This document shows positions 40,882 through 55,188 of a stretch of DNA of 64,000 bases, piece after piece (position 1 is the first letter of the stretch; every line of letters begins with the position of its first letter). The stretch is from Pseudomonadota bacterium (GTDB taxonomy: Bacteria > Pseudomonadota > Gammaproteobacteria > Steroidobacterales > JBCBZW01): the NCBI GenBank assembly GCA_039193195.1, contig JBCCWS010000021.1, positions 3,247 through 67,246 on the forward strand. Reading direction: 5' to 3'. A program made the position numbers and the translations under genes. The notes under the pieces are model-generated. The model made no database searches and had not been told where the DNA came from. It was given only the letters and a program-made list of their open reading frames with translations.

Positions 40882-41394
40882 TCACAGCCAACGCGCTGCC
40901 CACAAGCGCCAGCGAAGACCCCACTCACCGGGCAGCCCAAGCAGACGAAAGCGAATCCGGCCGTCGCGATCGACAATGAAGGTCGTGGGCACAGCCACAA
41001 CGCCGTACTGACCGGCAATACGCCCGTCGTCGACGATGGTGGGCATGGTCAGAGACTCGGCGTCCAGGTAGGCGGCCACGTCGGCCTCCTCGCCCGACTG
41101 CATGGCGATGGTGAGCACGTGGCCCTCCGTCGCCAAGCGATCGATCATGTCGTGCTCGCGCATGCAGTTGGGGCACCACACGGCCCAGAAGCGAATCGCC
41201 ACAGGGCCCTCGTCCGTGTACTGCGCTAGGGAAACTGGGCCTGCTTCGAGGCGCTGGGCCGTAAACTGCGGAGCCTGCCCCAGCGCCTGCTGATCGAGCC
41301 AAAGGCGCACGCCGAAGAAGATCGATAGTAGGAGTCCCGCTTCCAACAGGAGCAGGAACCATAAGCGAGTGCGCCGCCGCTTGGGCTTGGACAT
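40882..41394 (-). CDS. TlpA-like membrane-anchored thiol:disulfide oxidoreductase
   Basis: N-terminal TM anchor and the thioredoxin motif FWAVWCPNC. It is the last gene of the filament operon. Confidence 0.8.
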   Translation of the reverse strand: MSKPKRRRTRLWFLLLLEAGLLLSIFFGVRLWLDQQALGQAPQFTAQRLEAGPVSLAQYTDEGPVAIRFWAVWCPNCMREHDMIDRLATEGHVLTIAMQSGEEADVAAYLDAESLTMPTIVDDGRIAGQYGVVAVPTTFIVDRDGRIRFRLLGLPGEWGLRWRLWAARWL

Positions 41395-41403
41395 CGTCTT
41401 ACC

Positions 41404-42819
41404 CTACTGCTCAGTGATGGGCGGCGTATTGTGGCCCGTCACGCCCTTCGATGGCGTGCGACCCACATCTATCAGCGCCTGCTGAACCGCTACCAGGAGC
41501 GCTTCATTGCCGACCGCCTCGGCGTAGCGCAGCTCGTTTCGCAGCAGCTGCACCAGCGCCGCCGTGTCGTTGCGATCCTGATAACCCCCCCTAGCTTGCT
41601 CCACTAGGGCCAAACCGGCAGCCTCCTGGCCGACGCTCAACAGCGCCAAGCCGGAGTCGGCATAAACGGCGGGGTGGGTCTGCACATCGGTGGCAGCGAC
41701 AGCTTCACGCAGGACCGCGATGCCGACGTTGACCTGTCCTCGGCTCATCTGCGCCAGCCCAAGCATCGCCAGTGCCTCCGGACGAAGATCCGTCTCTGCC
41801 AGGCCGATGAGCATGGCGATGGCCGGCTCGTCCTGCCCCACCGCTAGAAACGCTTCGGCCTGGCCGAGGCGTAGGCGCTCGCGGCTCGGCGTTGAGCCAG
41901 GTTCGTTCTCCGCAGCTCGCCAGGCAAGCAGCGCGGCCTGGGGTACTTCACGGTTGAGCTCGACGCGCCCGAGTCGGGCACGCAGGGCTCTGCGCGTCAT
42001 CGAGGGGTTGGCGTCACTCGGGCCAGTGATCTCCAGCAGCAGGCGTAGGGTCATGGGATCGTGCATCGTTGCTAGCGACAAACTCCGCACGGCCATGTCG
42101 CGCGCGCGCACGGCTGCATCGAGGTTACCGACAAGCTGATGGGCCAATGCCGCGTAGAGGTTGGCCTGCGCGGCGACTCCCGCATCCCAGGTGGCCACGC
42201 GGTCGGCCGCCCGCTCGAAGATCCGTGCCGCGTCAGCCGGGCGACCGGCAGCGAGCGTCGCCGTAGCTCGCAGGCGCAGGGCGTCCAGTTCAGCCCAGGG
42301 CGCAGGTGACTTGGCGGGTATCGCGATCGATCGCTCTGCTACCTCAGCAAAACCGCCACGGCGTAGGTCTGCACGAGCTGACGCGCGCTCTCGCTCCCAC
42401 GCCTCGTAGCGCTTCGGTCGCTCGGCGCGATCGGCCACGAAGGCAGCCCAGCCGCCCGCTTCGGGCGCTGCCAGGACGTCTAGCCAGGCCGCGAGCACGT
42501 GCTGGATTTGGAGGGATGTTTGCGTCGCCAGCACGGCCTCACGGGCGCGATCGGGAAACATCCGCACGAGCTCACCGACCGCATTAGCACGCCCCCGCAG
42601 CAGTTGTTGCTGCACGCGCGTAACGAACACCTGCAGGGATTGTGGCTTACCCACCGCATCGCCAAGGACGACGGATTCGCCGTCGATGCGAAGCACGGGC
42701 CCCGAGGAGGTCGACGCTTCGGCTATGGGCGTCTCAGCGGGGCCTTGCGCTGGTCCTGTCGCGCAACTGCCGAGTGCCAGCAGAAGCCCTAGGACGCCGA
42801 GGGCGGCCCATCTTCTCAC
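41404..42819 (-). CDS. TPR-like lipoprotein (possible secretin pilotin/assembly factor)
   Basis: GTG start overlapping the secretin stop, a lipobox LALGSC, and an Ala/Leu-rich helical repeat content. Confidence 0.6.
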   Translation of the reverse strand: MRRWAALGVLGLLLALGSCATGPAQGPAETPIAEASTSSGPVLRIDGESVVLGDAVGKPQSLQVFVTRVQQQLLRGRANAVGELVRMFPDRAREAVLATQTSLQIQHVLAAWLDVLAAPEAGGWAAFVADRAERPKRYEAWERERASARADLRRGGFAEVAERSIAIPAKSPAPWAELDALRLRATATLAAGRPADAARIFERAADRVATWDAGVAAQANLYAALAHQLVGNLDAAVRARDMAVRSLSLATMHDPMTLRLLLEITGPSDANPSMTRRALRARLGRVELNREVPQAALLAWRAAENEPGSTPSRERLRLGQAEAFLAVGQDEPAIAMLIGLAETDLRPEALAMLGLAQMSRGQVNVGIAVLREAVAATDVQTHPAVYADSGLALLSVGQEAAGLALVEQARGGYQDRNDTAALVQLLRNELRYAEAVGNEALLVAVQQALIDVGRTPSKGVTGHNTPPITEQ

Positions 42820-44756
42820 CCCTGATCTCCCGACACGTTGCTCTGATTGACCGAAGGTGCGGTATTGAAGCGGAACAGATCGAAGATCGACCTATCGAAG
42901 GGCGGCTGCTTGTCACGGAACACTCCCCAATCGTCCGACGCGCCGGATTTGGAAGCGTTACCTGGCCGATAAGGATGAATGCTCAGCGACTCGAGCAGGT
43001 TGCGGCTGATCTTATCCGTCTCGATAGGCGTGCTGAGCACGTAAGGTCGTACCAACACGATCAGTTCGCTGCGGCTGATGACCGACGAGGTCCGCCGGAA
43101 CAGGACACCCAGGAGGGGAATATCGCCCAGAATCGGGATCTGTGCACGCTGGTCGCTTTCGGTCTCCTCGATCAGGCCACCGAACGCAAGTAGTAGGCCG
43201 TCGCGCGCCACGATCGTGCCACTCGCCGATTGGCTCTGCACCGTATCGATGGTCTCCGAGGAGAACCCAAGGCCTTGGGGCACGAGGATGGAAGCACCGT
43301 CTGGATTGACCTGGCTGGTCTCCTGCAGTAGACGAAGGGTCACCGTTCGGTCGGCGTTGATATTCGAGGTGATCAGCAGGTCTGTCCCAACGTCGCGCAG
43401 CTCGGTGACCGGCGTGGCCGACAAGGTGGTGGTGGCACCTGTCCCCACGATCACCTGTGGCTCCGTAAAGCCGGTCACCAAGGGCACCTGCTCGCCGGAG
43501 AAGATACGGCTCACCTCGCCGTTGGCTGTCAAAAGGATAGGCGTGGCGAGAGAGGTCACACGCCCCTTGCTCTGGAGCACCTGCAGGCGGGCCTGAAAGT
43601 TGTCCGAGACGGTCTGGAAAACGCCTGCGCTCAGGTCGAGGCCCGAGTCACCCTGGTCGAAGCCGCCGAAGTCACTGCCATCGTCGGAAGCGAAGGCGAA
43701 GTCGAAGCTCGTATCCTGCCCGTCGGACAGGTTGATGCGCAGGACGCGAACCTCCAGCAGAACCAACGACGTCGGCACATCAAGGCCTTCGATAATCGCC
43801 CTGATATCTGCCAGCACCTGCTCATTACCCGAGCGTACGACGATGCGATTGAGCCGCTGGACGGCCGTCACGTAGGTGGGCGCAAAGCGGGTAGCGACGC
43901 GCTGGGCCGCAGCAGCTGCGACCTGATCCCCACGCCGCGCTTCGGCCAGCGCCCGAGCCTCCTGCGCCGTGAGATCCGGCAGTTCCTGAGGCTCGAATTC
44001 CTGGGGCCCGCCGGTGTTTTGGTTCCCACCGAGGAAATTGTTTAACCCGTTGTTGCCGAGGCCGAACTGGTTGCCGTTGAGCGTCTGCACCCCGGTGCGC
44101 CCGGCACCGGTATCGCTGAGGCCGCGGCTGCGACCATCGATGACATCGAAGCGCCGGAACCGATTCTGCAGCTCCTGAAACGAGCGGTCAAAGAACTCGT
44201 TCTCCTCCGTGACGACGACCTGGTCGCCAAAGGTATCGCCGATTACGCGGACCACGTCCCGCGCGTTCGGGTACAAGAGCGTAAACACTTCGGTACGAGT
44301 GGCGCGGAACGCCGCCAGGTCGCCCCGAACATCCTCTGCAGTGGCCAGGAAATGAATGTCGCGGTCCTCGTCGCGGCGCGTAACAAGCCCCTGGGCCACA
44401 GCGATGGCGCTTAGCACCCCCTCGAGATCAAGGTCTCGCAGGGTGACGGTTACCCGCTCGTCCGCCACGCTGCGGCTAACGACCACGTTGGCGTTGGTAG
44501 AACGCCCCAGCTCATCGGCAACGCGACTGAGCGGCACGTCGATAAAACGGGCCTCGATAATGCGCCTGCGATTCTGCGGATCCGTCCTGATGTTGGCTAT
44601 ACCGAGTGGCGTCGTCGCCCCTCTTCCGGGGTCCAAGACGAGATTGCGCAGAGCGTCGGGTGCCACGGTGGGGTCGGACTGGGCGCGTGCTGCCGGCAAG
44701 AGCGTCAGCATTGCCAGGAGCGCAATGCCCGCAATGATCTGCACGGTGCGGTTCAT
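42816..44756 (-). CDS. gspD: Secretin (GspD/PilQ superfamily)
   Basis: ATG at 44756 gives the signal peptide MNRTVQIIAGIALLAMLTLLPAARAQ. The C-terminal secretin domain is present (TPILLTANGE...VP......, IPILGDIPLLGVLFR, SELIVLVRP). ATGA overlap with gspF. Confidence 0.85.
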   Translation of the reverse strand: MNRTVQIIAGIALLAMLTLLPAARAQSDPTVAPDALRNLVLDPGRGATTPLGIANIRTDPQNRRRIIEARFIDVPLSRVADELGRSTNANVVVSRSVADERVTVTLRDLDLEGVLSAIAVAQGLVTRRDEDRDIHFLATAEDVRGDLAAFRATRTEVFTLLYPNARDVVRVIGDTFGDQVVVTEENEFFDRSFQELQNRFRRFDVIDGRSRGLSDTGAGRTGVQTLNGNQFGLGNNGLNNFLGGNQNTGGPQEFEPQELPDLTAQEARALAEARRGDQVAAAAAQRVATRFAPTYVTAVQRLNRIVVRSGNEQVLADIRAIIEGLDVPTSLVLLEVRVLRINLSDGQDTSFDFAFASDDGSDFGGFDQGDSGLDLSAGVFQTVSDNFQARLQVLQSKGRVTSLATPILLTANGEVSRIFSGEQVPLVTGFTEPQVIVGTGATTTLSATPVTELRDVGTDLLITSNINADRTVTLRLLQETSQVNPDGASILVPQGLGFSSETIDTVQSQSASGTIVARDGLLLAFGGLIEETESDQRAQIPILGDIPLLGVLFRRTSSVISRSELIVLVRPYVLSTPIETDKISRNLLESLSIHPYRPGNASKSGASDDWGVFRDKQPPFDRSIFDLFRFNTAPSVNQSNVSGDQG

Positions 44757-45964
44757 AGGGCCGCTCCGTAGAGCGCCATCATGAAGGCGATGTAGACGTA
44801 CCCGACGATGCCGCCGACGACGATGATGACGGCGACCTCGACGAGGCTGGACAACGTGCGAATGAGCGCATCGAGGCGTTGTTCGTGAAATTCGGCGCAG
44901 GAGGTCATGGTTTCGTCTAGGTTTCCTGACTTCTCCCCCACGACAACCATGCTGCTCAGCATCGGGGTGAAGGTCTTGGGGGCCGCGAGCGCCGGCCCGA
45001 GGGCGCCACCGCCGATAACGCGGTCTCGCGCCTCGGCAATGAGTACGGTAAGGCGACGGTTGCCGTGCAGCTCCTGGCAGGTGCGCAGCGCCTCGATGAT
45101 GGTAACGCCGCTCGCCAATAGGTAAGCGAAGGAGCGGCTGAAGTACGCCGTCGCGCTGGTGCGCAGAATGAAGCCTGTTAGTGGCACGCGGAGCGCGATC
45201 GAGTCGATCAGCAAGCGCCCCACCGGCACCGCGTAGGTGACCGCGAAGCAGATCATCGCTAGCAAGATCCCGCCGACGATCATCGGCCACGAGGTCATCA
45301 GAAAATTACTGAGGTCGACCAACCCCTGGGCCATGGGCGGCAGCGGTCGGCCGAGGGCAGCCAGATAGACGGTGATGCGGGGCACGGCGAAGGTGAGAAT
45401 GAACACCGTCACGCCGATCGCGGCCACTAACACAAGGGTCGGGTACATGAGCGCAGAGATCAGCTGGGCAAGCAGCAGTCGCCGTTTTTCGAGCGCATCG
45501 GCCGCCCTCGCCAGCACGACGTCGAGGGTCCCGGTCTGCTCGCCGACCTCGACCAGTTGGCGCACCATGCGCCCCATCCAGGGATGGCGTTCCAGGGCCT
45601 GCGTAACGGTTCTCCCCTCCTGAACGCGCTCGGCGATGTCGACCAAGGTGGCACGCATAAATCTCGGCGACTGCGCGGCCGTCGCCCGCAGCGCCTCGAG
45701 TAGCGTCAACCCACTTCGCAGCATGACGCTGAGCTGTCGCATAGCCACTTCGAAGGTGGCCATGCTCGGGCGCGCAAAGGGCAGGCGGCTGATACGCGCC
45801 TCCAGCTGCAGCGATTGCGCCGGCCGGGTGCGCTCCTCGAGACGCAGCAGCAGGTGACCGTCAGCGCGCAGGGCGGCGGACGCCGCAGTCGCATCGGCCG
45901 CTTCTAGAAAGCCAGACTCGGTCTGACCGGATGGCGTTCGAATGTCGTAGGCGAAACTAGTCAT
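44753..45964 (-). CDS. gspF: Type II secretion/type IV pilus platform protein (GspF/PilC family)
   Basis: 403 aa with a duplicated T2SSF domain and three TM segments. Confidence 0.9.
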   Translation of the reverse strand: MTSFAYDIRTPSGQTESGFLEAADATAASAALRADGHLLLRLEERTRPAQSLQLEARISRLPFARPSMATFEVAMRQLSVMLRSGLTLLEALRATAAQSPRFMRATLVDIAERVQEGRTVTQALERHPWMGRMVRQLVEVGEQTGTLDVVLARAADALEKRRLLLAQLISALMYPTLVLVAAIGVTVFILTFAVPRITVYLAALGRPLPPMAQGLVDLSNFLMTSWPMIVGGILLAMICFAVTYAVPVGRLLIDSIALRVPLTGFILRTSATAYFSRSFAYLLASGVTIIEALRTCQELHGNRRLTVLIAEARDRVIGGGALGPALAAPKTFTPMLSSMVVVGEKSGNLDETMTSCAEFHEQRLDALIRTLSSLVEVAVIIVVGGIVGYVYIAFMMALYGAAL

Positions 45965-45988
45965 TTAGGCTGGGCCGTTCTTATTGAT

Positions 45989-47851
45989 CTAAGGATGGTC
46001 GACGGCGGACGCATCGAGTTCAGCGTCGGCGGTCGATAGGTCTGATTCGCTCGCCGTCAGATCAGCGAAGCTCACCACGTTGCGCAGCACATCGGCGATG
46101 CTCGTGCGACCCTGCAACAGCTTCTCGGCCGCATCGTCGGCGAGCGTCTGCAGCCCGTGCTCCTCGATATAGCTCTTGAGCTGGTCCTCGGTGGCGCGGG
46201 CGGTGATCAATCGCGACAAGCCGCGGTCACAGGTGAGCATCTCGAACAGAGCCAGGCGCCCGATGTAGCCGCGCTGGCCGCAGTAAAGGCAACCCACTGG
46301 CTCCATAATCGACTGACCCGCCAGGTCAGGCCGTCCCAGCACAGCAGCATGGGCCGGATCACACGGTGCCGGCGTCGCGCATGAGGAGCACAGGCGACGG
46401 ACCAAGCGCTGGGCGACGACCATGCGCAAGGTGGCTCCGACCAGATACGGCGGAATGCCCATGTCGATCAGGCGGGTGATCGCACCGGTAGCATCGTTGG
46501 TGTGCAGCGTACTAAACACGAGGTGCCCGGTGAGCGCCGCCTTAACAGCGATATCGGCGGTCTCGCTATCGCGGATCTCACCGATCATGACGACGTCCGG
46601 ATCGTGGCGCAGGGTACTGCGCAGGGCCTTCGGGAAGGTGACCTTCTCCGCCGGATCGACCTCCACTTGGGTGACGCCCTTGATCTGGTACTCGACCGGG
46701 TCTTCGATGGTGATCACATTTAAATCGGTTTCGCTGATCAGCTGCTGGATGGCAGCGAACAGCGTCGTGCTCTTGCCGCTTCCCGTCGGCCCCGTTAGCA
46801 GGACCAGGCCATAGGGCTGGCGGATGGCCTGGCCGAATCGCTTGAGCTGCGTCGCGGACATGCCGAGCGTGCCAAGGCTTAGGTCGTCCGCGTCCTTGCC
46901 GAGCAGACGGAGCGTCACGCGCTCGCCGTGTTTGGTCGGCAGCGTGGCGACGCGAACATCGAGGCGAACGTCGTTGCTCATCTCGTGACGCAAGCGACCG
47001 TCCTGCGGCGCACGACGCTCGGAGATATCGAGGCCGGCCATGACTTTGATGCGACTGATAAGCGCGGCACCACTCTCCGGCGTGAGATCGCGCAGGGTTT
47101 CGATCTGCCCATCCACGCGCACGCGAATCCGAACCTGAGTCTGGAAACTGTCGATGTGGATGTCGCTGGCGCCGTACATCAGTGCCGAGGCAAACACGAG
47201 GTCGTAGGTGGCAACCGCGTCGAGCTCACCGTCATCGCCTCCTTCGGCCCCAATCGACAAGGCATCAGCACCGGCGTAAACCCGCTCGATGACCTTGCCC
47301 AAGGACTCTGCGTCGACCGTGTGCAGCTTGATGTCGCGCCGGTAGGTCCGATTCAGCACCGTCTCGACCTTCGGACTCAGGGGACCGGCCACCGCCACCA
47401 CGACCGCCTCCTCGCTGGTGGCAAAGGGCAGCACCTGCCATTGACGGGCGCGGGCGGCGGGCAGCAGTAGCGCCACGTGTGGGTCCACCCTGACGCGCGC
47501 GATGTCGAGTTGAGAAGTCTTCGGCTCGAGCAGCGCGCCCGACACCAAGCGCACGCCGATAACCGGCCGCTCCGGGGCGTCGCTCCAGGCCACCTCGGCC
47601 GGTTGCGGAGGGCTGCCATCTGCGCTGTCCATCAACAGCCGTTGACCCACTGCGGGTAGCTCAGCCGAGTCGGTCAATTCGATCTCCGCGCCGCCGGGGG
47701 AGACCTGCAGCAGCTGCGCCTCGCGTCGAATACCGTCGGCGAAGTGCAGCCAGATGGAGCGCCCGCGCGGGTGCGGCTGCGCGTGGCCGGTCGGATCGAG
47801 GGTCGCCTCGTGACCGCGCTGCTGCATCGGGTCCGAATCCACCGTGCTCAC
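45989..47851 (-). CDS. gspE: GspE/PilB-family assembly ATPase with extra N-terminal PilZ-like domain
   Basis: Walker A LLTGPTGSGKSTTL, Asp box, Walker B DPDVVMIGEIRD, His box, and tetracysteine CSSC...CLYC. A T2SSE_N-like segment and an additional domain of about 100 aa lie upstream. Confidence 0.9.
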   Translation of the reverse strand: MSTVDSDPMQQRGHEATLDPTGHAQPHPRGRSIWLHFADGIRREAQLLQVSPGGAEIELTDSAELPAVGQRLLMDSADGSPPQPAEVAWSDAPERPVIGVRLVSGALLEPKTSQLDIARVRVDPHVALLLPAARARQWQVLPFATSEEAVVVAVAGPLSPKVETVLNRTYRRDIKLHTVDAESLGKVIERVYAGADALSIGAEGGDDGELDAVATYDLVFASALMYGASDIHIDSFQTQVRIRVRVDGQIETLRDLTPESGAALISRIKVMAGLDISERRAPQDGRLRHEMSNDVRLDVRVATLPTKHGERVTLRLLGKDADDLSLGTLGMSATQLKRFGQAIRQPYGLVLLTGPTGSGKSTTLFAAIQQLISETDLNVITIEDPVEYQIKGVTQVEVDPAEKVTFPKALRSTLRHDPDVVMIGEIRDSETADIAVKAALTGHLVFSTLHTNDATGAITRLIDMGIPPYLVGATLRMVVAQRLVRRLCSSCATPAPCDPAHAAVLGRPDLAGQSIMEPVGCLYCGQRGYIGRLALFEMLTCDRGLSRLITARATEDQLKSYIEEHGLQTLADDAAEKLLQGRTSIADVLRNVVSFADLTASESDLSTADAELDASAVDHP

Positions 47852-49026
47852 CGAACCGCGGTCCTGCGAGCGATGCCAGCCCGGACGTTGTGGCGGCTAA
47901 TCTGCTCGGCGCGGGCGCGCAGCACCTCCGGCCGCTTTGCTGCCGCTGTGGCCGATCGCTCGCTGAGTCTTCCCGCCACCATCAGGCGCGCGAGGTCCTG
48001 CTCGAAGGTCTGCATGCCGTAGCCTGCACCAGCTTCCATGCAGCTGTAGATCTGGCTGCTCTTGCTGTTCAACAGCAGGTTCGACACGGCCGTCGTCACC
48101 ATCAGCACTTCAGACGACACCACGCGCTGGCGGGCCAGCCCCTGTGGATCGTCCGCGTGGACCGCCGTGCCATCCGCGACCAGCAGCCGCTGCGACACCA
48201 CGCAACGCAGCACCAGTGCCAGCTGCTGGCGAATCGCGGTCTGCTCTTCCGCAGGAAACACGCCCACGACGCGTTCGATGGTGCTCACGCAATCGCCAGC
48301 GTGCACCGAGGCCAAAACCAGGTGTCCGGTCTCTGCCGCCGTGATAGCCGTGCGGATGGTGTCCGTGTCGCGGATCTCGCCGACCAGCACGACGTCCGGA
48401 TCCTCACGCAGGCTATTCACCAGGGCGTCGTTGAAGGACTCCGTGTCCAAACCGACCTGACGCTGGTTCACCAGTGCCCGCGCCGGGCGATGGACGTACT
48501 CGATCGGGTCCTCGATCGTGATCACGTGGCACGCGTGGGTGTTGTTGATGCGGTCGATCAACGTCGCGAGGGTAGTCGACTTACCGCTGCCCGTCGGTCC
48601 ACTGACGAGCACCAGTCCGTAGGGCAAATTACAAAGGTCGTAAAGTGCTTCCGGAAGCCCCAGTTCGGCAAGCCCTCGGAACCGGTCCTCGAGGCGTCTT
48701 AGGGCCACCGCCAGGCCGCCGCTGCGCCAAAACAGGTTGAAGCGGTAGCGGGTGCCGTCGGGGCCCGTGAACGCACCGTCTACGCTGCCCGTTCGCCGCT
48801 TACTAAAACCACTGCTGAGATCGTCGACGATCGCCACCATCGTCTCGCGATCGAGCGGCGCTTCACCCGCCAAGGCCTCGAGGGGCCCTTGCGTGCGCAG
48901 GTAGGGCGGCAGGCCCTCGCCTAGGTGGATATCGCTCGCATCGAGCTCCACGCAGCGACGCAGTAGGTGCTCGAGACGTTTGGCCGAGGGCGTGCCCGGC
49001 GGCGAGTCCGCTCCCTGGCTGCTCAC
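47848..49026 (-). CDS. pilT: PilT/PilU-family retraction-type ATPase
   Basis: Walker A VSGPTGSGKSTTL, ITIEDPIEY, DPDVVLVGEIRD, GHLVLASVHA. It has no tetracysteine motif and PilT-like length. GTGA overlaps at both ends. Confidence 0.85.
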   Translation of the reverse strand: MSSQGADSPPGTPSAKRLEHLLRRCVELDASDIHLGEGLPPYLRTQGPLEALAGEAPLDRETMVAIVDDLSSGFSKRRTGSVDGAFTGPDGTRYRFNLFWRSGGLAVALRRLEDRFRGLAELGLPEALYDLCNLPYGLVLVSGPTGSGKSTTLATLIDRINNTHACHVITIEDPIEYVHRPARALVNQRQVGLDTESFNDALVNSLREDPDVVLVGEIRDTDTIRTAITAAETGHLVLASVHAGDCVSTIERVVGVFPAEEQTAIRQQLALVLRCVVSQRLLVADGTAVHADDPQGLARQRVVSSEVLMVTTAVSNLLLNSKSSQIYSCMEAGAGYGMQTFEQDLARLMVAGRLSERSATAAAKRPEVLRARAEQISRHNVRAGIARRTAVR

Positions 49027-49808
49027 GGTTCGCCTCCGGTGTCCGTTACCGTCAGCGCCCAGCGGCGCAGGGACGTCGATGTCAGCGCGGGCTCCATCGT
49101 CAGCGCGGACAGCGCCAGTCCCGGTGGGAAGGTATCGGCGGCCGCCAACTGCCTGCCCATGGCCGACCAGGTCGCCGCCACGTCGACCTGCCAGCGCAGG
49201 CGCCGCGTGGTACCTGTACTCGTACTCGCGAGCCGATTCGCACTCGAGGAGGTCCTCGGTAGCGCACTCGCGTCAACCGACTTTCGCCGCTGCCGGCGGC
49301 TGAGGCTACGGTTAGCCGTGGCACCTGTCGCCGGCCGCGTCGCCGCGCTCGTGGCCGGATTGGGCCTTGGGCTCGTCACGCTCGTCGCCGGGCGGCCTTG
49401 CGAGGCTGTGCTCACGCGTGTGCCCCCCTGCGGCAGCATGCCGAGCACCTGCACCCCGTTTCGACTGAGTTGGCGGGTCAACCGATCCAGGCCCTGCGCC
49501 ATCGCGGAGGCGCGGCTGCCGCTTGGCACGCGCAAGGCATCGACCCGCTCCTTGAGCTGCGCCTCTCGGTTCTTCAGCTCAGCCAAGGTCTGCTCACTCT
49601 CCCGTAGCTCATTGGTGAGATCGCGCTGCTCCCGCGCCCGTCGCGCAAGCGCCTCATCGCTGGTCAGCAGGTTCAAGCGGCGCTCCATATCGGGAATCCG
49701 CGACGTCTCGCCCTTCGGCAGGCCCAGCGACGCGATGACCACCAGGGCTGCCGGCATCAGGCAGACAAGCCAGAGCTCGCGGCGCGAGAGTCGGCGCTTT
49801 AGCATCAT
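49023..49808 (-). CDS. GspM/PilO-like bitopic assembly protein (hypothetical)
   Basis: Short basic N-terminus, one TM (LWLVCLMPAALVVIASL), a coiled-coil segment, a long S/T/R/P/A-rich linker and a small C-terminal domain. The assignment rests on architecture and position only. Confidence 0.45.
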   Translation of the reverse strand: MMLKRRLSRRELWLVCLMPAALVVIASLGLPKGETSRIPDMERRLNLLTSDEALARRAREQRDLTNELRESEQTLAELKNREAQLKERVDALRVPSGSRASAMAQGLDRLTRQLSRNGVQVLGMLPQGGTRVSTASQGRPATSVTSPRPNPATSAATRPATGATANRSLSRRQRRKSVDASALPRTSSSANRLASTSTGTTRRLRWQVDVAATWSAMGRQLAAADTFPPGLALSALTMEPALTSTSLRRWALTVTDTGGEP

Positions 49809-51289
49809 CGACGCGCCTCTCGGGAGGGTGCCCGCAGATCGACCACCGGCTCCATGAGTATGGAGAACTCCCACACCACGCCACCGGAGCCGGCCTTGGG
49901 CTCGATCTGCGCGGGGTTTACGCGCCAATGGGTACTAAGCATTCTGCTTAGGTTGCTGGCCAGGCGCGATGCCGCTTCAGGGGTCGAGGCCACGCCGGAG
50001 ATAGATTGCCAGGGCATGCGATGCTCCAGGGATCGGATCACGATGTCCTCGTCTACCAGCTGGCCCACGGCCTCCATCAAGGCCGCCAGCGCGACACGAC
50101 GATCGACGCCGGCGGTTGTGCGCCAATCGCGGCTGAATCGATCAAGTTCTTGCTCTAAGGCCTGAACGGCACGCTCTCGGCTGCGCACTTCGCTACTGAG
50201 CGTGCGCAAGCGCGCCCGGCGGTCGGTAACGACCTGCTGCTGGCCCTGGGCGTGGTCCAGCTGCGCCTGCAGTACCGTGTATTGCTCCTGCCCCTGGCTG
50301 CGCTGGAGTAGCACCGTCGAAAGCGCTAGTAAGAAGACGACCACGCCTACCGCCACCGCTGTCCAGCGCTCCGTCTGCGCGCTGGGCGGGCGCAGGACCG
50401 GGCCGCCCTCGGTGCGCGAGGCACCCTCTGCTGCGAGACATCGGGCCCAGGCAGCAGCGAACTGCGTAGCCGCATCGTCATCGCCCAGCCTCCAGGTCGG
50501 CAGGCCTGTGTCCTCATCATCAACCCCGTCTTCGGCCAGCCAGCGAGCCGCGCTATTGTCTGGCGAGGTAGTCTCACGCCACTGGTGGCCGCCGCGAACT
50601 TTCACGGCCCCTTCGATCAGGGTTTGCTCCTGGCCGACCGGCTCGGCGCCGCGCAGATACGGCGCGAGCGCCCGTCGCCAGTCGCTCTGCGGCACGGCCC
50701 CCAGCGGGATCAGCGTGACGGCCCCCGCCACGCACTCCACCAGCACTACCGAGTCCGACCAAAACTCCAGGCGGCGCCAAGACCCATCTGGCTCCATGAT
50801 TGCAGGCGAGGCTGGTGCCAAGGCCTCCGCCAGCCCCGCCGGATGGCTGATGCCGGCCAAGCGTGATCTTGCACCTCGCACCGCCTTGGTCACAGCGATC
50901 ATGTCGCTGCGCTTCACCTGGGCGACGAGGAAACTGTCCCCAAGGTCAGCCATACGCCGCCGCTGCACTTCCGTCACCGCGTCGGCCGGCTTGATGTCGC
51001 TGAGCGCCTCGGCCTCGTAGGCTGCCGGCTCAATCAGGTCCTTATCCGACAAGCCGGCGACGGCACCGCTGGACAGTTCGATGGCGCCGAACCAGACCCC
51101 ACTGTCCAGCACCCAAACCCGGCGACCGACAGGCCCGGCCCCATCACTGAGCGCATGGGTGAGCGCTGCGGGCAGATCCGGCCAGGATCGGCGCCAGCGT
51201 TGGACCGGTCGCGCTTCGCTACCCTGATCAGCCCGCAGAAGCAGGCCCTCGGTGCGAATCACCACGGTGATGTCGGGACGAGAGGTCAT
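49805..51289 (-). CDS. GspL- or PilM/PilN-fusion-like bitopic assembly protein (hypothetical)
   Basis: Cytoplasmic domain of about 300 aa, one TM (WTAVAVGVVVFLLALSTVLL), a coiled coil and a periplasmic domain. The assignment rests on architecture and synteny only. Confidence 0.45.
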   Translation of the reverse strand: MTSRPDITVVIRTEGLLLRADQGSEARPVQRWRRSWPDLPAALTHALSDGAGPVGRRVWVLDSGVWFGAIELSSGAVAGLSDKDLIEPAAYEAEALSDIKPADAVTEVQRRRMADLGDSFLVAQVKRSDMIAVTKAVRGARSRLAGISHPAGLAEALAPASPAIMEPDGSWRRLEFWSDSVVLVECVAGAVTLIPLGAVPQSDWRRALAPYLRGAEPVGQEQTLIEGAVKVRGGHQWRETTSPDNSAARWLAEDGVDDEDTGLPTWRLGDDDAATQFAAAWARCLAAEGASRTEGGPVLRPPSAQTERWTAVAVGVVVFLLALSTVLLQRSQGQEQYTVLQAQLDHAQGQQQVVTDRRARLRTLSSEVRSRERAVQALEQELDRFSRDWRTTAGVDRRVALAALMEAVGQLVDEDIVIRSLEHRMPWQSISGVASTPEAASRLASNLSRMLSTHWRVNPAQIEPKAGSGGVVWEFSILMEPVVDLRAPSREARR

Positions 51290-51291
51290 CG

Positions 51292-52329
51292 CTAGCTTTG
51301 CTCTTCTAGCACAAGTTGCGGCAGCGGCGGCAGCCCGCCGGGTACGTTGACAAAGTACACGGGACGACTGACGCGGTCAGTGCCAGGAAGCAGCGCCGGA
51401 TTCAAATCCTCGTCGGGCAGGGGACTGCACTTCGTCTGATAGGCGCGAATCACCCGAGGCCCAACGCTCACGGCGCCACCGGGGATCATGGGCGCCAAGG
51501 GCACGGCGGTCACGCCCACAGCCACGCCATCCACGTTGAGGTCATGCACGGCCTGGGCGAGCGTCAGCACATCACCGCTGGCCGCATCCGGGCCGTAAAC
51601 GCGGATCACTATGCAATCCCCAAACCCGAGGTCGTCGCCCGGATCACTGCCGTCATCGACCACCACCCCCTCGATGACGACATCGCCCTCGAAGCGCGGC
51701 GGCACGACGCTGACCAGGCCGGCAAACTCCGGGGCGGCCTGGGCGACCGCAGTCGCTTCGAACACGGTGAGCAGGTCGCGACCGAAACCGACGCCGCCGG
51801 CGAGGCGATCGGCACCGCGGCTGCGCACGATGCGGATTTCGCCCGGCGCCGCCACCAAGACGCCGTCCTGATCGAAGGCCTCGAAATCCCTGCCCCAGCC
51901 GTCGGTCAGCGTGTCCGCGCCGACAGGCAGGCGCAGGTAGGGTCCACGCCATCCACTGCCAACCGCGAGCCCCGTGTCCCCCGGCGGTGCCCTATCGATG
52001 CGAAAGGCCGATTGGGTCCCGAGCCTTAGCAACTCACCCAGGTCAGCGGGTGGGCGCCCCATGTCCGCCACGAAGCCTGTGATCAGGCGCTGACCGTCGG
52101 GGCCACGTAGGTCCGAGTCGCCGACCACGGCAGCGTCCAGCTGCTCCAGCGTGCGGACCGTTCTTTGGTAGCGCGCGTCGTCGGTCAGACTCGCCGACTG
52201 CGCGATGATGATCGTCCCCAGCGCTGCGAGGATCGTCAACACCACGATCAGTTCCAGCAGCGTTAGCCCCGCCTGGCGTGATCGCGTGCGGATCGGCGCG
52301 TCCGCGCAGAGCAGCTTAATTGACCTCAC
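51292..52329 (-). CDS. Large GspG-like pseudopilin (345 aa)
   Basis: Class III signal ...SRQAG|LTLLELIVVLTILAALG with Glu+5, plus GspG-like motifs GWRGPYL, DGWGRDF and SRGADRLAGG. GTG start. Confidence 0.7.
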   Translation of the reverse strand: MRSIKLLCADAPIRTRSRQAGLTLLELIVVLTILAALGTIIIAQSASLTDDARYQRTVRTLEQLDAAVVGDSDLRGPDGQRLITGFVADMGRPPADLGELLRLGTQSAFRIDRAPPGDTGLAVGSGWRGPYLRLPVGADTLTDGWGRDFEAFDQDGVLVAAPGEIRIVRSRGADRLAGGVGFGRDLLTVFEATAVAQAAPEFAGLVSVVPPRFEGDVVIEGVVVDDGSDPGDDLGFGDCIVIRVYGPDAASGDVLTLAQAVHDLNVDGVAVGVTAVPLAPMIPGGAVSVGPRVIRAYQTKCSPLPDEDLNPALLPGTDRVSRPVYFVNVPGGLPPLPQLVLEEQS

Positions 52330-52334
52330 GAGTT

Positions 52335-53141
52335 CTATTCCTGCGGATCCTGATCCTGCTGAAAGAGGTAGAGCACCAGATCATCACCCTGCTCTTCTTC
52401 GTCGGTGACCAGCGTGTCCAGCGTGCGGTTCGGCCCCGCGGAGAGCAGCCGCACACCGTTCAACTCGGCAGGATCGTCAATGACGCCGTCGCCGTCGGGA
52501 TCGGGGCCGTTGTCATCGCTGTCGAACCACTGGATGACGATTGGCCGGCTCCAGGCGTCGAGGGGAGTGAGGTCATCACCTGGCGCGCCGCCGGGGCCGT
52601 CGCCCTCGCCGTAGCGCGTGGTGAAGGCGCCGTCCACCGTGTAGCCAACCGCCGTGGTCACGTCCAGCCAGGGGCCGCGTCAGCCGATCTGGTTGACGGG
52701 ATCGTAGACTTGCTGCGCCGGTGGGGCGTAGTCGAAGAGCTGCAGGGGCTCGACGAAAAGGTAGCGAAGCTGAGGGTGGTCCTGACGTCCTGCGCTAATC
52801 TCAGCCGGACTCGGCCAAGGCAGCCCTGTGCCGTAGCCGATGTTGCGGTCGAGCGTGTCGCGCGCGTAGCGCATGCTCTGCGCGTAACCGTCCGGCCCGA
52901 CGATCGCCTCGGCGACCCGCGCGAGCGTGGTCTCCGTGATGACCTGCTGCGCCAATTTACCGTCTTGGCCGCCAGCGCCGTCGAGGTCTATCTCCAGCGT
53001 GTTTTGAGTCAAATTCACCAGTACGAGGCCACCGAGCGCCACGAGTACCACGAGCACCACAAGCAACTCGATCAGCGTGACGCCGCGGCAGGGTGCGGCG
53101 GCGTTGGCCCTCTCCGTTAGACGCGAGAGGTCGCTCGGCAC
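52335..53141 (-). pseudogene. GspG-like pseudopilin interrupted by an in-frame TGA (52680-52682)
   Basis: ORFs 52680-53342 and 52335-52661 share one frame. The N-terminal part has ...CRG|VTLIELLVVLVVL and the C-terminal part has DAWSRPIVIQ and LLSAGPNRTLDT. Start proposed at GTG 53141 (uncertain). Confidence 0.6.
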
Positions 53142-53227
53142 CCGCCCGCCGTGCAAGCGATCGAACTCACGGCCTCGACCGACTGTGCTCGAGTCCTCGC
53201 CCAAAAATGGGCTTCGCTCAACGAAGA

Positions 53228-53256
53228 GCCCCTGGGGCGGAAACCGCCCCAGGGGC
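53228..53256 (-). terminator. Perfect 13-bp GC-rich hairpin (GCCCCTGGGGCGG aaa CCGCCCCAGGGGC) downstream of the first pilin gene
   Basis: Read directly and cross-checked against ORF frames. It begins about 34 nt after the pilin stop. On the transcript it is followed by CUCUUCGUU. It sits in the only sizeable gap (148 nt) of the operon. Confidence 0.55.
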
Positions 53257-53289
53257 CACTTGTCGCCAGCAGGCGAGGCCATTCGGGGA

Positions 53290-54129
53290 TTAGATACCCG
53301 AGCCCTGTACCTCATCCCACTGGATGCCGATGTGGTTGTCACCGGTCTCGAACAGGCTGCCGTCCAAGTTGTAGCTCACGCGCTTAAACTCTGCCGAGCC
53401 GTCGCCGGTACCCACACCGCCATCGTCGACCAGGAAGACCGCGCCGAAGCGAGAGTAGGCCTGATTGGGCAGAGCGCCTTCGGTATCGCCGAAGTGGACA
53501 GGCGGCTCAGGCGTGAGCGTGCCGAGCAGAGTCCAGGGCTTGTCGATGCCGAGCCAGACGTACTGCTGCGATCCCGTCGTGGCCGGCAGGAAGACCTCTG
53601 CGGCCTGCACGTCAGTCAGGATGAGGACGGGCGTGGCGTCATCCAGGGTCAGGCAGGTGGCGCCAAGGGTATCGATACCGGAATTGAAGGTGACGTCGTA
53701 GCCGTCGACCGCGGCCGGGTCGCCATGGTTGCAGACGTTGACGATTCCGAGCTCGTTGATGGCTGCCACCTGATCTGTGGTCAGCAGGCCCGTCTGTAGA
53801 GAGCCACCGCCGCCGCCGCCGCCATCAGTATTGGTGGCGGAGTTGTTGACCGGCTCGCCTGCACCTGCACCCGCACCAAAGATGTCGGTGGTCCAGTTGT
53901 CGCCGAAGTTGCCAAGCGTGGCGTTGGCCGCGATCAGCATTTTCGAGACTTCTGAGAAATTGGTCGCGCAGGTGGCGACGTGAGAACGGGTCAACGCGTT
54001 GTTGATCACCGGAACCAGGATACCGCCCGTTGCGACCAGGATGGTCAGCACCACGACCAGTTCGATCAGGGTTAGGCCACGCTGGCTCTTGGGCCCTTGG
54101 CCCCGCCCGTAATTACGCAAAGCGTGCAT
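53290..54129 (-). CDS. Pilin-like protein (279 aa), first gene of the filament operon
   Basis: Class III signal ...KSQRG|LTLIELVVVLTILVATGG with Glu+5. The globular part has 3 Cys and a Gly7 run, and no family is recognised. GGAG RBS. Confidence 0.7.
   Translation of the reverse strand: MHALRNYGRGQGPKSQRGLTLIELVVVLTILVATGGILVPVINNALTRSHVATCATNFSEVSKMLIAANATLGNFGDNWTTDIFGAGAGAGEPVNNSATNTDGGGGGGGSLQTGLLTTDQVAAINELGIVNVCNHGDPAAVDGYDVTFNSGIDTLGATCLTLDDATPVLILTDVQAAEVFLPATTGSQQYVWLGIDKPWTLLGTLTPEPPVHFGDTEGALPNQAYSRFGAVFLVDDGGVGTGDGSAEFKRVSYNLDGSLFETGDNHIGIQWDEVQGSGI
53803..53823 (-). repeat. Trinucleotide repeat (GGC)5-GGT-GGC encoding Gly7 in the pilin-like gene
   Basis: Codons for G103-G109. 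The + strand reads gcc acc gcc gcc gcc gcc gcc. Confidence 0.85.
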
Positions 54130-54218
54130 TAAAATCTCCGTAATTTCAATTATTTACCGCTTCCCTGCCAAGCACCGACCGGAAGGTAGGCTGAGTTCAC
54201 TTGGGCAGGACCGTGGAA

Positions 54219-54228
54219 TGTTATAACA
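54219..54228. promoter_or_regulatory. Perfect palindrome TGTTATAACA within GGAATGTTATAACA (Zur-box-like half site)
   Basis: Lies in the divergent region between the filament operon (start 54129) and rpmJ (54518). GGAATGTTATAA resembles the left half of the enterobacterial Zur box GAAATGTTATAA as I recall it. Confidence 0.3.
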
Positions 54229-54388
54229 AAAGGAACTGGGTCGCACTTTAAATGAAAATGGCTCGCATTTCGGGGTTTCCCCAGCGGGGTTTCGGTTTGG
54301 CGCCAGAAGGCTCAGTCCCCAATTTCCCCGGACCCACCAGGGGTGGCGAAGGGAATGATCGGCTGCACATCGGCCTAACAAGTCATTG

Positions 54389-54419
54389 GTGAATGCGAAT
54401 TGTTTGCAGTACCATTCAC
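54389..54419. promoter_or_regulatory. Inverted repeat GTGAATG-N17-CATTCAC upstream of rpmJ
   Basis: 7-bp perfect arms about 100 nt upstream of the L36 start. Function unknown. Confidence 0.25.
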
Positions 54420-54517
54420 ATCTAGGCCACGGCGGTGTACAACCCAGTGTGCCCGGCAGAGAGCGACGGTCGCACAGCGGCATTGCGCAATGCCACCCCA
54501 CAGGTCGGAGTCAAAAA

Positions 54518-54658
54518 GTGAAAGTCCTAAGCTCGTTGAAGACTGCGAAATCGCGTCATCCGGACTGCCAGATCGTCAAGCGACGCGGGCGAATCTACGT
54601 GATCTGCAAGACGAATCCTCGCTTCAAGGCTGTTCAAGGCAAGAAGAAGAAGCGCTGA
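54518..54658 (+). CDS. rpmJ: 50S ribosomal protein L36, YkgO-type (Zn-independent paralogue)
   Basis: GTG start with GGAG RBS. (M)[45 protein letters not shown] closely resembles E. coli YkgO as recalled. Confidence 0.9.
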
Positions 54659-55188
54659 CATGCCGAGCGGTGGAGCTGCAGCGGGTAGCTCTGTTCGGCT
54701 TACCTAGCTAGTGACGCCGGCCACTCGCGAAGGACCATAGGCGCACGTCACTTCGCCCGCCGCAGAGCCCCAACTTGCCGTGCGTGGCTCGCGCAAGTGA
54801 CGGGCCACCTAGTGGGCCGCTTGCTTCCCTGTCTCAGCTAGCCTCGAATTTCGAACCTTCGGCCCTAAGCACGAAGTCTGGTGACTGCGATCGGTGCGCG
54901 CCGCGTTCGGATTCGCGCAGCCAAGGGCTCGTCTTCGAAGCCCGCATTCCTGATCGCTGGCAATTGGCGGTCCAACCAACCTCAGCAGGGTGCACATCAT
55001 TACGAACAGGGGGGCGACTGGTTGTACTCGTCCGCCTGCGCCGCCTCCAGGGCAGCTGCGCTAACGCCGGGAACGACCACCCTCGCAAAACCGTCGCTTG
55101 CTATTCTCACCAGGTGAAGCCGCGGGCTGGCGCGTTTCGCGGTGATTGCCCGCATACGCCGTTTTGCCCGCGTGACCGGAACCTACTG

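What the first reader, a model, noticed from the sequence alone, without database searches (positions are those of the whole stretch)
52680..52682. In-frame TGA exactly at a conserved Trp codon of a GspG-like pseudopilin
ORFs 52680-53342 and 52335-52661 are in the same frame (53342-52661=681, divisible by 3). They are separated only by TGA 52680-52682 and six sense codons. Read through, the junction is ..YDPVNQIG-TGA-RGPWLDVTTAVGY... The adjacent paralogue has GSGWRGPYLRLPVG at the equivalent place, so the stop replaces the expected TGG (Trp). The downstream piece carries the conserved C-terminal pseudopilin motifs (DAWSRPIVIQ, LLSAGPNRTLDT), so the upstream fragment alone would be a truncated pilin. 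Three explanations are possible: a sequencing error, a recent TGG-to-TGA nonsense mutation inactivating one filament subunit, or leaky UGA decoding. Leaky decoding by near-cognate tRNA-Trp would restore the ancestral residue and could set a low subunit stoichiometry.
Basis: seen in the sequence. Interest (0 to 1): 0.6.

Follow-up and report, generated by a model that had tools for sequence, protein, structure and literature searches.

The report
Opal stop in a pseudopilin gene
One pilin-like gene of a Planctomycetota secretion or pilus operon has a TGA stop where every relative has a tryptophan codon; this is most likely an ordinary recent nonsense mutation (or an uncorrected base call), not programmed recoding.

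Summary
On the minus strand, TGA at 52680-52682 joins two same-frame ORFs. Read through, they give one 268-273 aa prepilin-type protein. Full-length homologues (230-280 aa) exist in Planctomycetota metagenome bins.

The stop falls on a Trp that is invariant in 24 aligned homologues (GWRGxWL motif). All 37 homologue or paralogue hits checked at DNA level have TGG there and no internal stop.

Nothing points to recoding:
- TGA ends 45% of 1003 long ORFs.
- RF2 is present, with the efficient Ala246-type motif.
- The single tRNA-Trp(CCA) has a normal 5-bp anticodon stem.
- There is no tRNA-Sec and no SelB.
- There is no RNA structure downstream of the stop and no Rfam match.
- The TGA is not conserved in any relative.

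The rest of the operon is intact and syntenic with four related loci. The part after the stop is as similar to the closest homologue as the part before it (63% each).

Best reading: a recent TGG-to-TGA mutation that truncates this pilin. Only background read-through by tRNA-Trp would happen to restore the original residue. The finding is ordinary.

The parts
52680..52682 (-). In-frame opal codon TGA replacing the invariant Trp codon (TGG) of the GWRGxWL motif. The diagnostic base is window 52680 (+ strand T now, C in the TGG form), which is G000 contig C21 position 55926.
52683..53141 (-). 5' part of the pseudopilin gene. The probable start is GTG 53141, giving a 20-aa leader ending CRG, then VTLIELL with Glu at +5, the hydrophobic N-terminal helix and the first half of the globular domain ending ...YDPVNQIG. 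Longer in-frame starts exist (TTG 53156; ATG 53282, used by the public 200-aa gene call P0003).
   Evidence: N_methyl 21.1 bits; TIGR02532 18.9 bits, cut-off 16.3
52335..52679 (-). 3' part of the same gene in the same frame (RGPWLDV...DAWSRPIVIQ...RLLSAGPNRTLDT...DDLVLYLF). It ends at TAG 52335-52337 and still keeps all invariant family residues.
52659..52661 (-). GTG six codons after the TGA. It is the mechanical start of the 108-aa downstream ORF. It could only serve as a re-initiation codon, and its product would have no signal or prepilin leader.
   Evidence: inference
53290..54129 (-). First gene of the operon, a 279-aa prepilin-type protein (likely the major subunit). It is intact and 76% identical to its L028 counterpart.
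53228..53256 (-). Perfect 13-bp GC-rich hairpin with a UUU loop, in the 148-nt gap between the first pilin gene and the broken gene.
51292..52329 (-). Downstream 345-aa paralogous prepilin-type protein with GWRGPYL (TGG). Its start lies 5 nt after the broken gene's TAG.
42816..51289 (-). Rest of the filament machinery, all open: 494-aa and about 233-aa unknown proteins, a PilT-like ATPase (392 aa), a GspE/MshE-type ATPase (620 aa), a GspF platform protein (403 aa) and a secretin.

Best explanation
A single G-to-A transition turned the invariant Trp codon TGG of a prepilin-type (pseudopilin) gene into the opal codon TGA. The organism uses the standard code, so RF2 terminates there. The product is a truncated prepilin of about 158 aa before leader cleavage. 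It keeps the leader, the N-terminal helix and half of the globular domain. It lacks the conserved C-terminal part (DxWGxPIVIQ, RLxSAGPD, DDxVLYL) and is presumably non-functional (inferred). The event is evolutionarily recent: the downstream 113 codons are still open and as conserved as the upstream part, and every other gene of the operon is intact. Any residual full-length protein would come from ordinary background misreading of UGA by Trp-tRNA(CCA), which would happen to restore the ancestral residue. That leak is expected to be small and is not a designed feature (inferred). About 345 untranslated nucleotides then precede the next gene, so expression of downstream genes may also drop through polarity (inferred).
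For: - TGA lies at the invariant W159 column.
- 37 of 37 homologue or paralogue hits have TGG and no internal stop.
- Homologues are single ORFs of 230-280 aa.
- The gene order pilin279, this gene, pilin345, orf494, orf233, PilT, GspE is conserved in L028, L003, L005 and L024. All other genes align full length.
- Identity to the closest homologue is 63.2% before the stop and 63.4% after it.
- TGA is the commonest stop: 452 of 1003 long high-GC3 ORFs.
- RF2 is present at 493.6 bits against a cut-off of 370, with the YRASGAGGQ motif (Ala at the E. coli 246 position).
- There is one canonical tRNA-Trp(CCA) with a 5-bp anticodon stem, and no UCA or Sec tRNA.
- No SelB was found.
- No unusual RNA fold follows the stop (z = +1.19), and there is no Rfam match.
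- In-frame stops are rare in this assembly: 1 of 63 ECF-sigma hits and 0 of 60 ABC hits.
- The one other case is a truncated ECF-sigma remnant, also with TGA at a Trp position. This shows that such lesions occur in decaying genes of this genome.
Against:
- No closely related genome carries the operon: same-genus and same-family representatives lack it, and there was no near-identical DNA in the metagenome collection. The age of the lesion and its polymorphism therefore cannot be measured.
- The excess of lineage-specific changes after the stop is weak (8 of 59 conserved columns against 2 of 74 before it, p = 0.023; against relatives p = 0.09). Terminal branch shares vary as much among intact relatives. 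Relaxed selection is neither shown nor excluded.
- UGA followed by C is recalled as a weak termination context in E. coli, so some read-through is physically likely.
Confidence: 0.62

Rival explanations
1. Assembly or consensus artefact, or a minority allele: the organism (or most cells of the population) actually has TGG, and the gene is intact.
For: - The downstream part is perfectly preserved, with no second lesion in the gene or the operon.
- This is a draft assembly of 113 contigs.
- Reads could not be checked.
Against: - Substitution errors are rare in consensus assemblies. In-frame stops in conserved domains are rare in this one: 1 of 123 domain hits.
- That one other case sits in a clearly decayed gene.
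- The site is not in a homopolymer or repeat.
- Only one copy of the locus is in the assembly.
- Real nonsense pseudogenes are expected to outnumber error-made stops in a 6.7-Mb genome (general knowledge).
Confidence: 0.24
2. Selected leaky stop: UGA-C is kept because low-level decoding by Trp-tRNA(CCA) yields a small, tuned amount of full-length minor pilin. The classic analogue is the UGA read-through that makes the minor coat protein A1 of phage Q-beta.
For: - Near-cognate tRNA-Trp is the known UGA misreader and would insert exactly the ancestral residue. E. coli K-12 reporters give about 2-4% read-through (PMC10570021).
- The base after the stop is C.
- The downstream part keeps all invariant residues.
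- Minor pilins are needed in small amounts (general knowledge).
Against: - The TGA is unique to this genome: 0 of 37 relatives have it.
- There is no downstream structure.
- tRNA-Trp is canonical with a 5-bp anticodon stem. Efficient UGA reading was tied to 4-bp stems (PMC13092985).
- RF2 has Ala at the 246 position. Percent-level UGA read-through products in E. coli depended on the weak K-12 Thr246 variant and were absent with the Ala246 RF2 (PMC5373646).
- TGA-C ends 89 ordinary long ORFs here.
Confidence: 0.07
3. mRNA editing: TadA deaminates the A of UGA to inosine, so the ribosome reads UGG (Trp) on a fraction of transcripts.
For: - The A is followed by CG (GACG).
- It can be drawn as the third base of a 7-nt loop UGACGCG closed by GGC/GCC, the position of A34 in tRNA-Arg(ACG).
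- GACG sites have been reported as edited in Xanthomonas fliC and after TadA overexpression (PMC7467310).
Against: - The required motif is YUACGAA in a stem-loop. Single changes at each tested position nearly abolish editing, and only 5% of known sites deviate by 2-3 bases (PMC12255301).
- This site has 3 mismatches, including the U before the A.
- The predicted fold is weaker than shuffled controls.
- ACG follows simply from TGA plus an Arg codon CGC.
Confidence: 0.02
4. Nascent gene fission: the N-terminal and C-terminal halves are made as two proteins that work together, as in the Geobacter PilA-N/PilA-C split pilin.
For: - A GTG lies six codons after the stop.
- The best PDB sequence matches of the N-terminal helix are the short 'Geopilin domain 1' proteins.
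Against: - The 108-aa downstream product would start MTTAVGYTVDG... with no signal peptide or prepilin leader, so it could not reach the periplasm.
- There is no clear Shine-Dalgarno sequence before the GTG.
- No relative is split.
Confidence: 0.02
5. Altered genetic code or selenocysteine at this UGA.
For: None beyond the in-frame TGA itself.
Against: - RF2 is present.
- TGA makes up 45% of stops.
- There is no tRNA with a UCA anticodon and no tRNA-Sec.
- No SelB scored above the cut-off.
- No SECIS-like hairpin was found.
- There were 0 internal stops in 60 ABC domains.
Confidence: 0.01

Closest known systems
Ordinary nonsense-mutation pseudogene (internal stop, as flagged by genome annotation pipelines)
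   Same: A single in-frame stop at a codon that is sense in all homologues. It is lineage-specific, and the gene is otherwise intact.
   Different: The lesion is the mildest possible kind: UGA at a Trp codon, so background misreading restores the wild-type residue. The surrounding operon shows no decay.
Type II secretion pseudopilin GspG / type IV pilin superfamily
   Same: It has a prepilin leader with Gly at -1 and Glu at +5 and a hydrophobic N-terminal helix. It has the motifs W-x-G-P-[YW]-L, D-x-W-G-x-P and S-x-G-x-D-G in the same order as GspG (order recalled from memory). It sits in an operon with GspE, GspF and a secretin.
   Different: No hit to the GspG models (PF08334, TIGR01710) and no structural match to solved pilins beyond the helix. 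It is twice the length of GspG, with long insertions. The operon also carries a PilT-like ATPase. The family appears confined to Planctomycetota bins.
Phage Q-beta A1 read-through protein (UGA decoded by tRNA-Trp at a few per cent)
   Same: The same codon and the same near-cognate tRNA would act, and a low-abundance structural subunit would result.
   Different: In Q-beta the stop is conserved and the extension is an added domain. Here the stop interrupts a conserved domain, is not conserved, and has no supporting signal.
TadA-dependent A-to-I mRNA editing in bacteria (YUACGAA loop)
   Same: An A followed by CG, at a loop position like A34.
   Different: Three of seven motif positions differ, including the essential U at -1. 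No known bacterial editing site rescues a stop codon, as far as the papers read here show.

Membership tests
Prepilin-type (type IV pilin-like) proteins | N-terminal cleavage/methylation motif: Gly at -1, hydrophobic +1, Glu at +5, followed by a hydrophobic helix | tested here: met
   TIGR02532 scored 18.9 bits against a cut-off of 16.3. Pfam N_methyl scored 21.1 against a cut-off of 21.2, which is borderline. CRG|VTLIELL is read. The AF2 helix spans residues 28-51. PDB profile hits to pilin N-termini reached E = 2e-6.
T2SS major pseudopilin GspG (PF08334 / TIGR01710) | Match of the globular domain to the GspG model or fold | tested here: not met
   P0001 had no PF08334 or TIGR01710 hit. The neighbouring pilins hit TIGR01710 only over its first 50 positions, far below the cut-off. 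Foldseek against PDB gave no match with E <= 0.001.
Nonsense-mutation pseudogene | In-frame stop at a position that is a sense codon in homologues, with homologous sequence continuing in frame after it | tested here: met
Nonsense-mutation pseudogene | The stop is present in the organism's DNA (read support) | not testable with these tools
No independent assembly was found.
Programmed stop-codon read-through | The stop codon is conserved among orthologues | tested here: not met
   0 of 37 homologue or paralogue hits have a stop at this column.
Programmed stop-codon read-through | A stimulatory context, downstream RNA structure, or specialised tRNA or release-factor state | tested here: not met
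   The fold z-score was +1.19. tRNA-Trp is canonical with a 5-bp anticodon stem. RF2 is the Ala246 type. The only feature present is C after UGA.
UGA-to-Trp code reassignment (table 4 type) | Loss of RF2, a tRNA-Trp(UCA) or 4-bp-stem tRNA-Trp, and TGA not used as a stop | tested here: not met
Selenoprotein | tRNA-Sec, SelB, and a SECIS hairpin after the UGA | tested here: not met
TadA mRNA editing site | YUACGAA motif in a 7-nt loop on a stem | tested here: not met
   The site reads UGACGCG: 4 of 7 positions match and the U at -1 is missing. There is no stable stem. RNA-level data are not available.

The most novel reading that the evidence does not exclude
The UGA is kept, not merely tolerated. 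A small, possibly condition-dependent fraction of ribosomes (through Trp-tRNA misreading at UGA-C) or of transcripts (through A-to-I editing at GACG) would restore Trp. The cell would then make trace amounts of a minor filament subunit from a gene that looks broken.
Probability: 0.06. Interest if true: 0.6.

Novelty: new member of a known kind. Interest (0 to 1): 0.15.

Why it matters
It matters mainly for annotation. The two ORFs (the public call is a 200-aa fragment) are one pseudopilin gene interrupted by an opal codon. This strain's filament system may therefore be impaired or down-regulated.

It is also a clean example of the most forgiving kind of nonsense mutation, since misreading of UGA by tRNA-Trp puts the original residue back. 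It gives no evidence of a new recoding mechanism.

If the low-probability tuned-leak or editing reading were true, it would be a rare bacterial chromosomal case of stop-codon rescue that sets subunit dosage.

Tried and rejected
- **Independent assemblies:** the exact-protein look-up of the public 200-aa fragment found nothing. Two exact-pattern scans of metagenome contigs, with N at the diagnostic base, found nothing.
- **Close orthologues:** same-genus and same-family genome representatives lack the pseudopilin genes and match only paralogous ATPase genes. TGG versus TGA therefore could not be compared at short distance.
- **Code change or selenocysteine:** rejected.
- **4-bp anticodon-stem tRNA-Trp:** rejected.
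- **Read-through structure or known RNA family:** none found.
- **Relaxed selection after the stop:** only a weak, non-robust excess of lineage-specific changes. dN/dS was not attempted because the closest relative is only 64% identical, so synonymous sites are saturated.
- **GspG membership by profile or fold:** not supported. The AF2 model was of moderate quality only (pLDDT 73.5).
- **Sulfatase and DUF1559 families as extra pseudogene yardsticks:** no members in this genome.
- **Genome-wide scan for interrupted genes by coding potential:** considered and dropped. Same-frame adjacent genes cannot be told apart from interrupted genes without a homology database.

Full report
**Observation.** The gene lies on the minus strand. 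The sequence reads ...GTC AAC CAG ATC GGC TGA CGC GGC CCC TGG CTG GAC GTG ACC.... The ORFs 52680-53342 and 52335-52661 share a frame and are separated only by TGA (52682-52680) and six sense codons. Reading TGA as Trp gives one protein, P0001. It is 273 aa from TTG 53156, or 268 aa from the more likely start GTG 53141. The adjacent 345-aa paralogue has GSGWRGPYLRLPVG.

**Is the position meaningful?** A search of 5.8 billion proteins found 47 homologues. Most are 230-280 aa and most come from Planctomycetota bins. The closest is 64% identical, and the homologues aligned span the junction. In an alignment of 24 of them, the stop column (W159) is one of 24 invariant columns and sits in the motif GWRGxWL. 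Even the shortest homologues span it. In 25 genomic loci of relatives, plus the window's own paralogue, tblastn placed 37 aligned hits over this column. All 37 have TGG and none has an internal stop. The lesion is therefore a single, lineage-specific G-to-A change at an invariant Trp codon.

**Context.** The gene is second in a minus-strand operon:
- a 279-aa prepilin-type protein, followed by a 13-bp perfect hairpin;
- this gene;
- a 345-aa paralogue;
- two proteins of unknown function (494 aa and about 233 aa);
- a PilT-like ATPase, a GspE/MshE-type ATPase, GspF and a secretin.

The same order is found in L028 (the contig of the closest homologue) and in L003, L005 and L024. Every other window gene aligns over its full length. 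The broken gene's divergence from L028 (64%) lies between that of its neighbours (76%, 60%, 56%). Same-genus and same-family representative genomes do not have the pseudopilin genes, so the operon is an accessory trait.

**Genetic code and decoding machinery.**
- The genome (6.7 Mb, 64% GC, 113 contigs) has one tRNA-Trp(CCA), with a canonical 5-bp anticodon stem. It has no tRNA with a UCA anticodon and no tRNA-Sec.
- RF2 is present at 493.6 bits (cut-off 370) and carries YRASGAGGQ, that is Ala at the E. coli 246 position.
- No SelB scored above the cut-off.
- TGA ends 452 of 1003 long high-GC3 ORFs, 89 of them as TGA-C.
- Sixty ABC-transporter domains have no internal stop.
- Of 63 ECF-sigma hits, one has an internal stop.

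That one case is a truncated C-terminal remnant in which TGA replaces the Trp of ...RDWRFAKAWL..., again as TGA-CGC. It confirms an earlier unchecked note and shows the same kind of lesion in a plainly decaying gene. The shared TGA-CGC follows from the ancestral Trp-Arg dipeptide in both motifs.

**Signals for recoding.** The 121 nt around and after the stop fold less well than shuffled controls (z = +1.19). No Rfam family matches the region 52000-54700.

**What the literature adds on read-through.**
- UGA misreading by Trp-tRNA competes with RF2 and reaches about 2-4% in E. coli K-12 reporters (PMC10570021).
- K-12 carries an unusually weak Thr246 RF2. The read-through products studied were absent with the Ala246 form (PMC5373646).
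- Efficient UGA reading by tRNA-Trp(CCA) has been tied to 4-bp anticodon stems (PMC13092985), which this tRNA lacks.
- That C after UGA is a weak termination context in E. coli is my recollection and was not checked here.

**A-to-I editing.** Editing would turn UGA into UGI, which is read as UGG. The site offers GACG and a possible 7-nt loop, UGACGCG. The required motif is YUACGAA. Single substitutions nearly abolish editing, and only 5% of known sites deviate by 2-3 bases (PMC12255301). This site deviates at three positions. GACG editing has been reported once, in Xanthomonas fliC (PMC7467310). I rate editing at about 2%.

**Age of the lesion.** Identity to the closest homologue is 63.2% before the stop and 63.4% after it. 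At columns conserved in the outgroup, P0001 has 2 private changes in 74 columns before the stop and 8 in 59 after it (p = 0.023). Against its two closest relatives the excess is not significant (p = 0.09). Terminal-branch shares in separate N-part and C-part trees (3.4% against 5.5%) vary no more than in intact relatives. There is thus no clear decay. The stop is either recent or not real.

**What the protein is.** It passes the prepilin N-terminal domain model (TIGR02532) and is borderline for Pfam N_methyl. The globular part matches no GspG model and no solved structure. The AF2 model had pLDDT 73.5, and Foldseek found nothing at E <= 0.001. 'GspG-like' therefore rests on motif order and operon context only.

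**Verdict.** A tuned leak (0.07), editing (0.02), gene fission (0.02) and code change or Sec (0.01) have little or no support. The finding is ordinary, and interest is low.

Noticed in passing
G000 contig C5:162958-163140 (+), outside the window: A C-terminal remnant of an ECF sigma factor (only model positions 108-165 match) has an in-frame TGA where the family motif RDWRFA.AWL has Trp. As in the pilin gene, it reads TGA-CGC. It was the only one of 63 ECF-sigma hits with an internal stop.
   Followed up: partly
window 53228-53256: A perfect 13-bp GC-rich hairpin with a UUU loop lies in the only long gap of the operon, between the first pilin gene and the broken gene. The public 200-aa gene call for the broken gene (start ATG 53282) would be translated through it, so GTG 53141 is a more plausible start.
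   Followed up: partly
window 40882-54129 versus G001, G002 and L028: The operon is missing from the same-genus and same-family representative genomes. It is syntenic with distant Planctomycetota bins. Its closest copy (60-76% protein identity across the three pilin-type genes) is in a bin labelled Pseudomonadota (GCA_039188505.1), which suggests a mislabelled bin or horizontal transfer.
   Followed up: partly
window 52455-52520 (minus strand; residues about 213-232 of P0001): An acidic insertion, DSDDNGPDPDGDGVIDDP, is shared with only the closest homologues (P0002, P0004, P0005, P0010). It resembles a DxDxDG-type calcium-binding loop.
   Followed up: no
G000 contig C12:78578-79597 (-): The prfB (RF2) match runs from model position 12 to 352 in one open frame of 361 aa with no stop. 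This RF2 gene therefore seems to lack the programmed +1 frameshift site found in many bacteria.
   Followed up: no
window 47848-49026: A PilT-like retraction-type ATPase (T2SSE domain, 392 aa) sits in an operon whose pilins carry T2SS-pseudopilin-like motifs. It is conserved at 68-78% identity in the related loci.
   Followed up: partly
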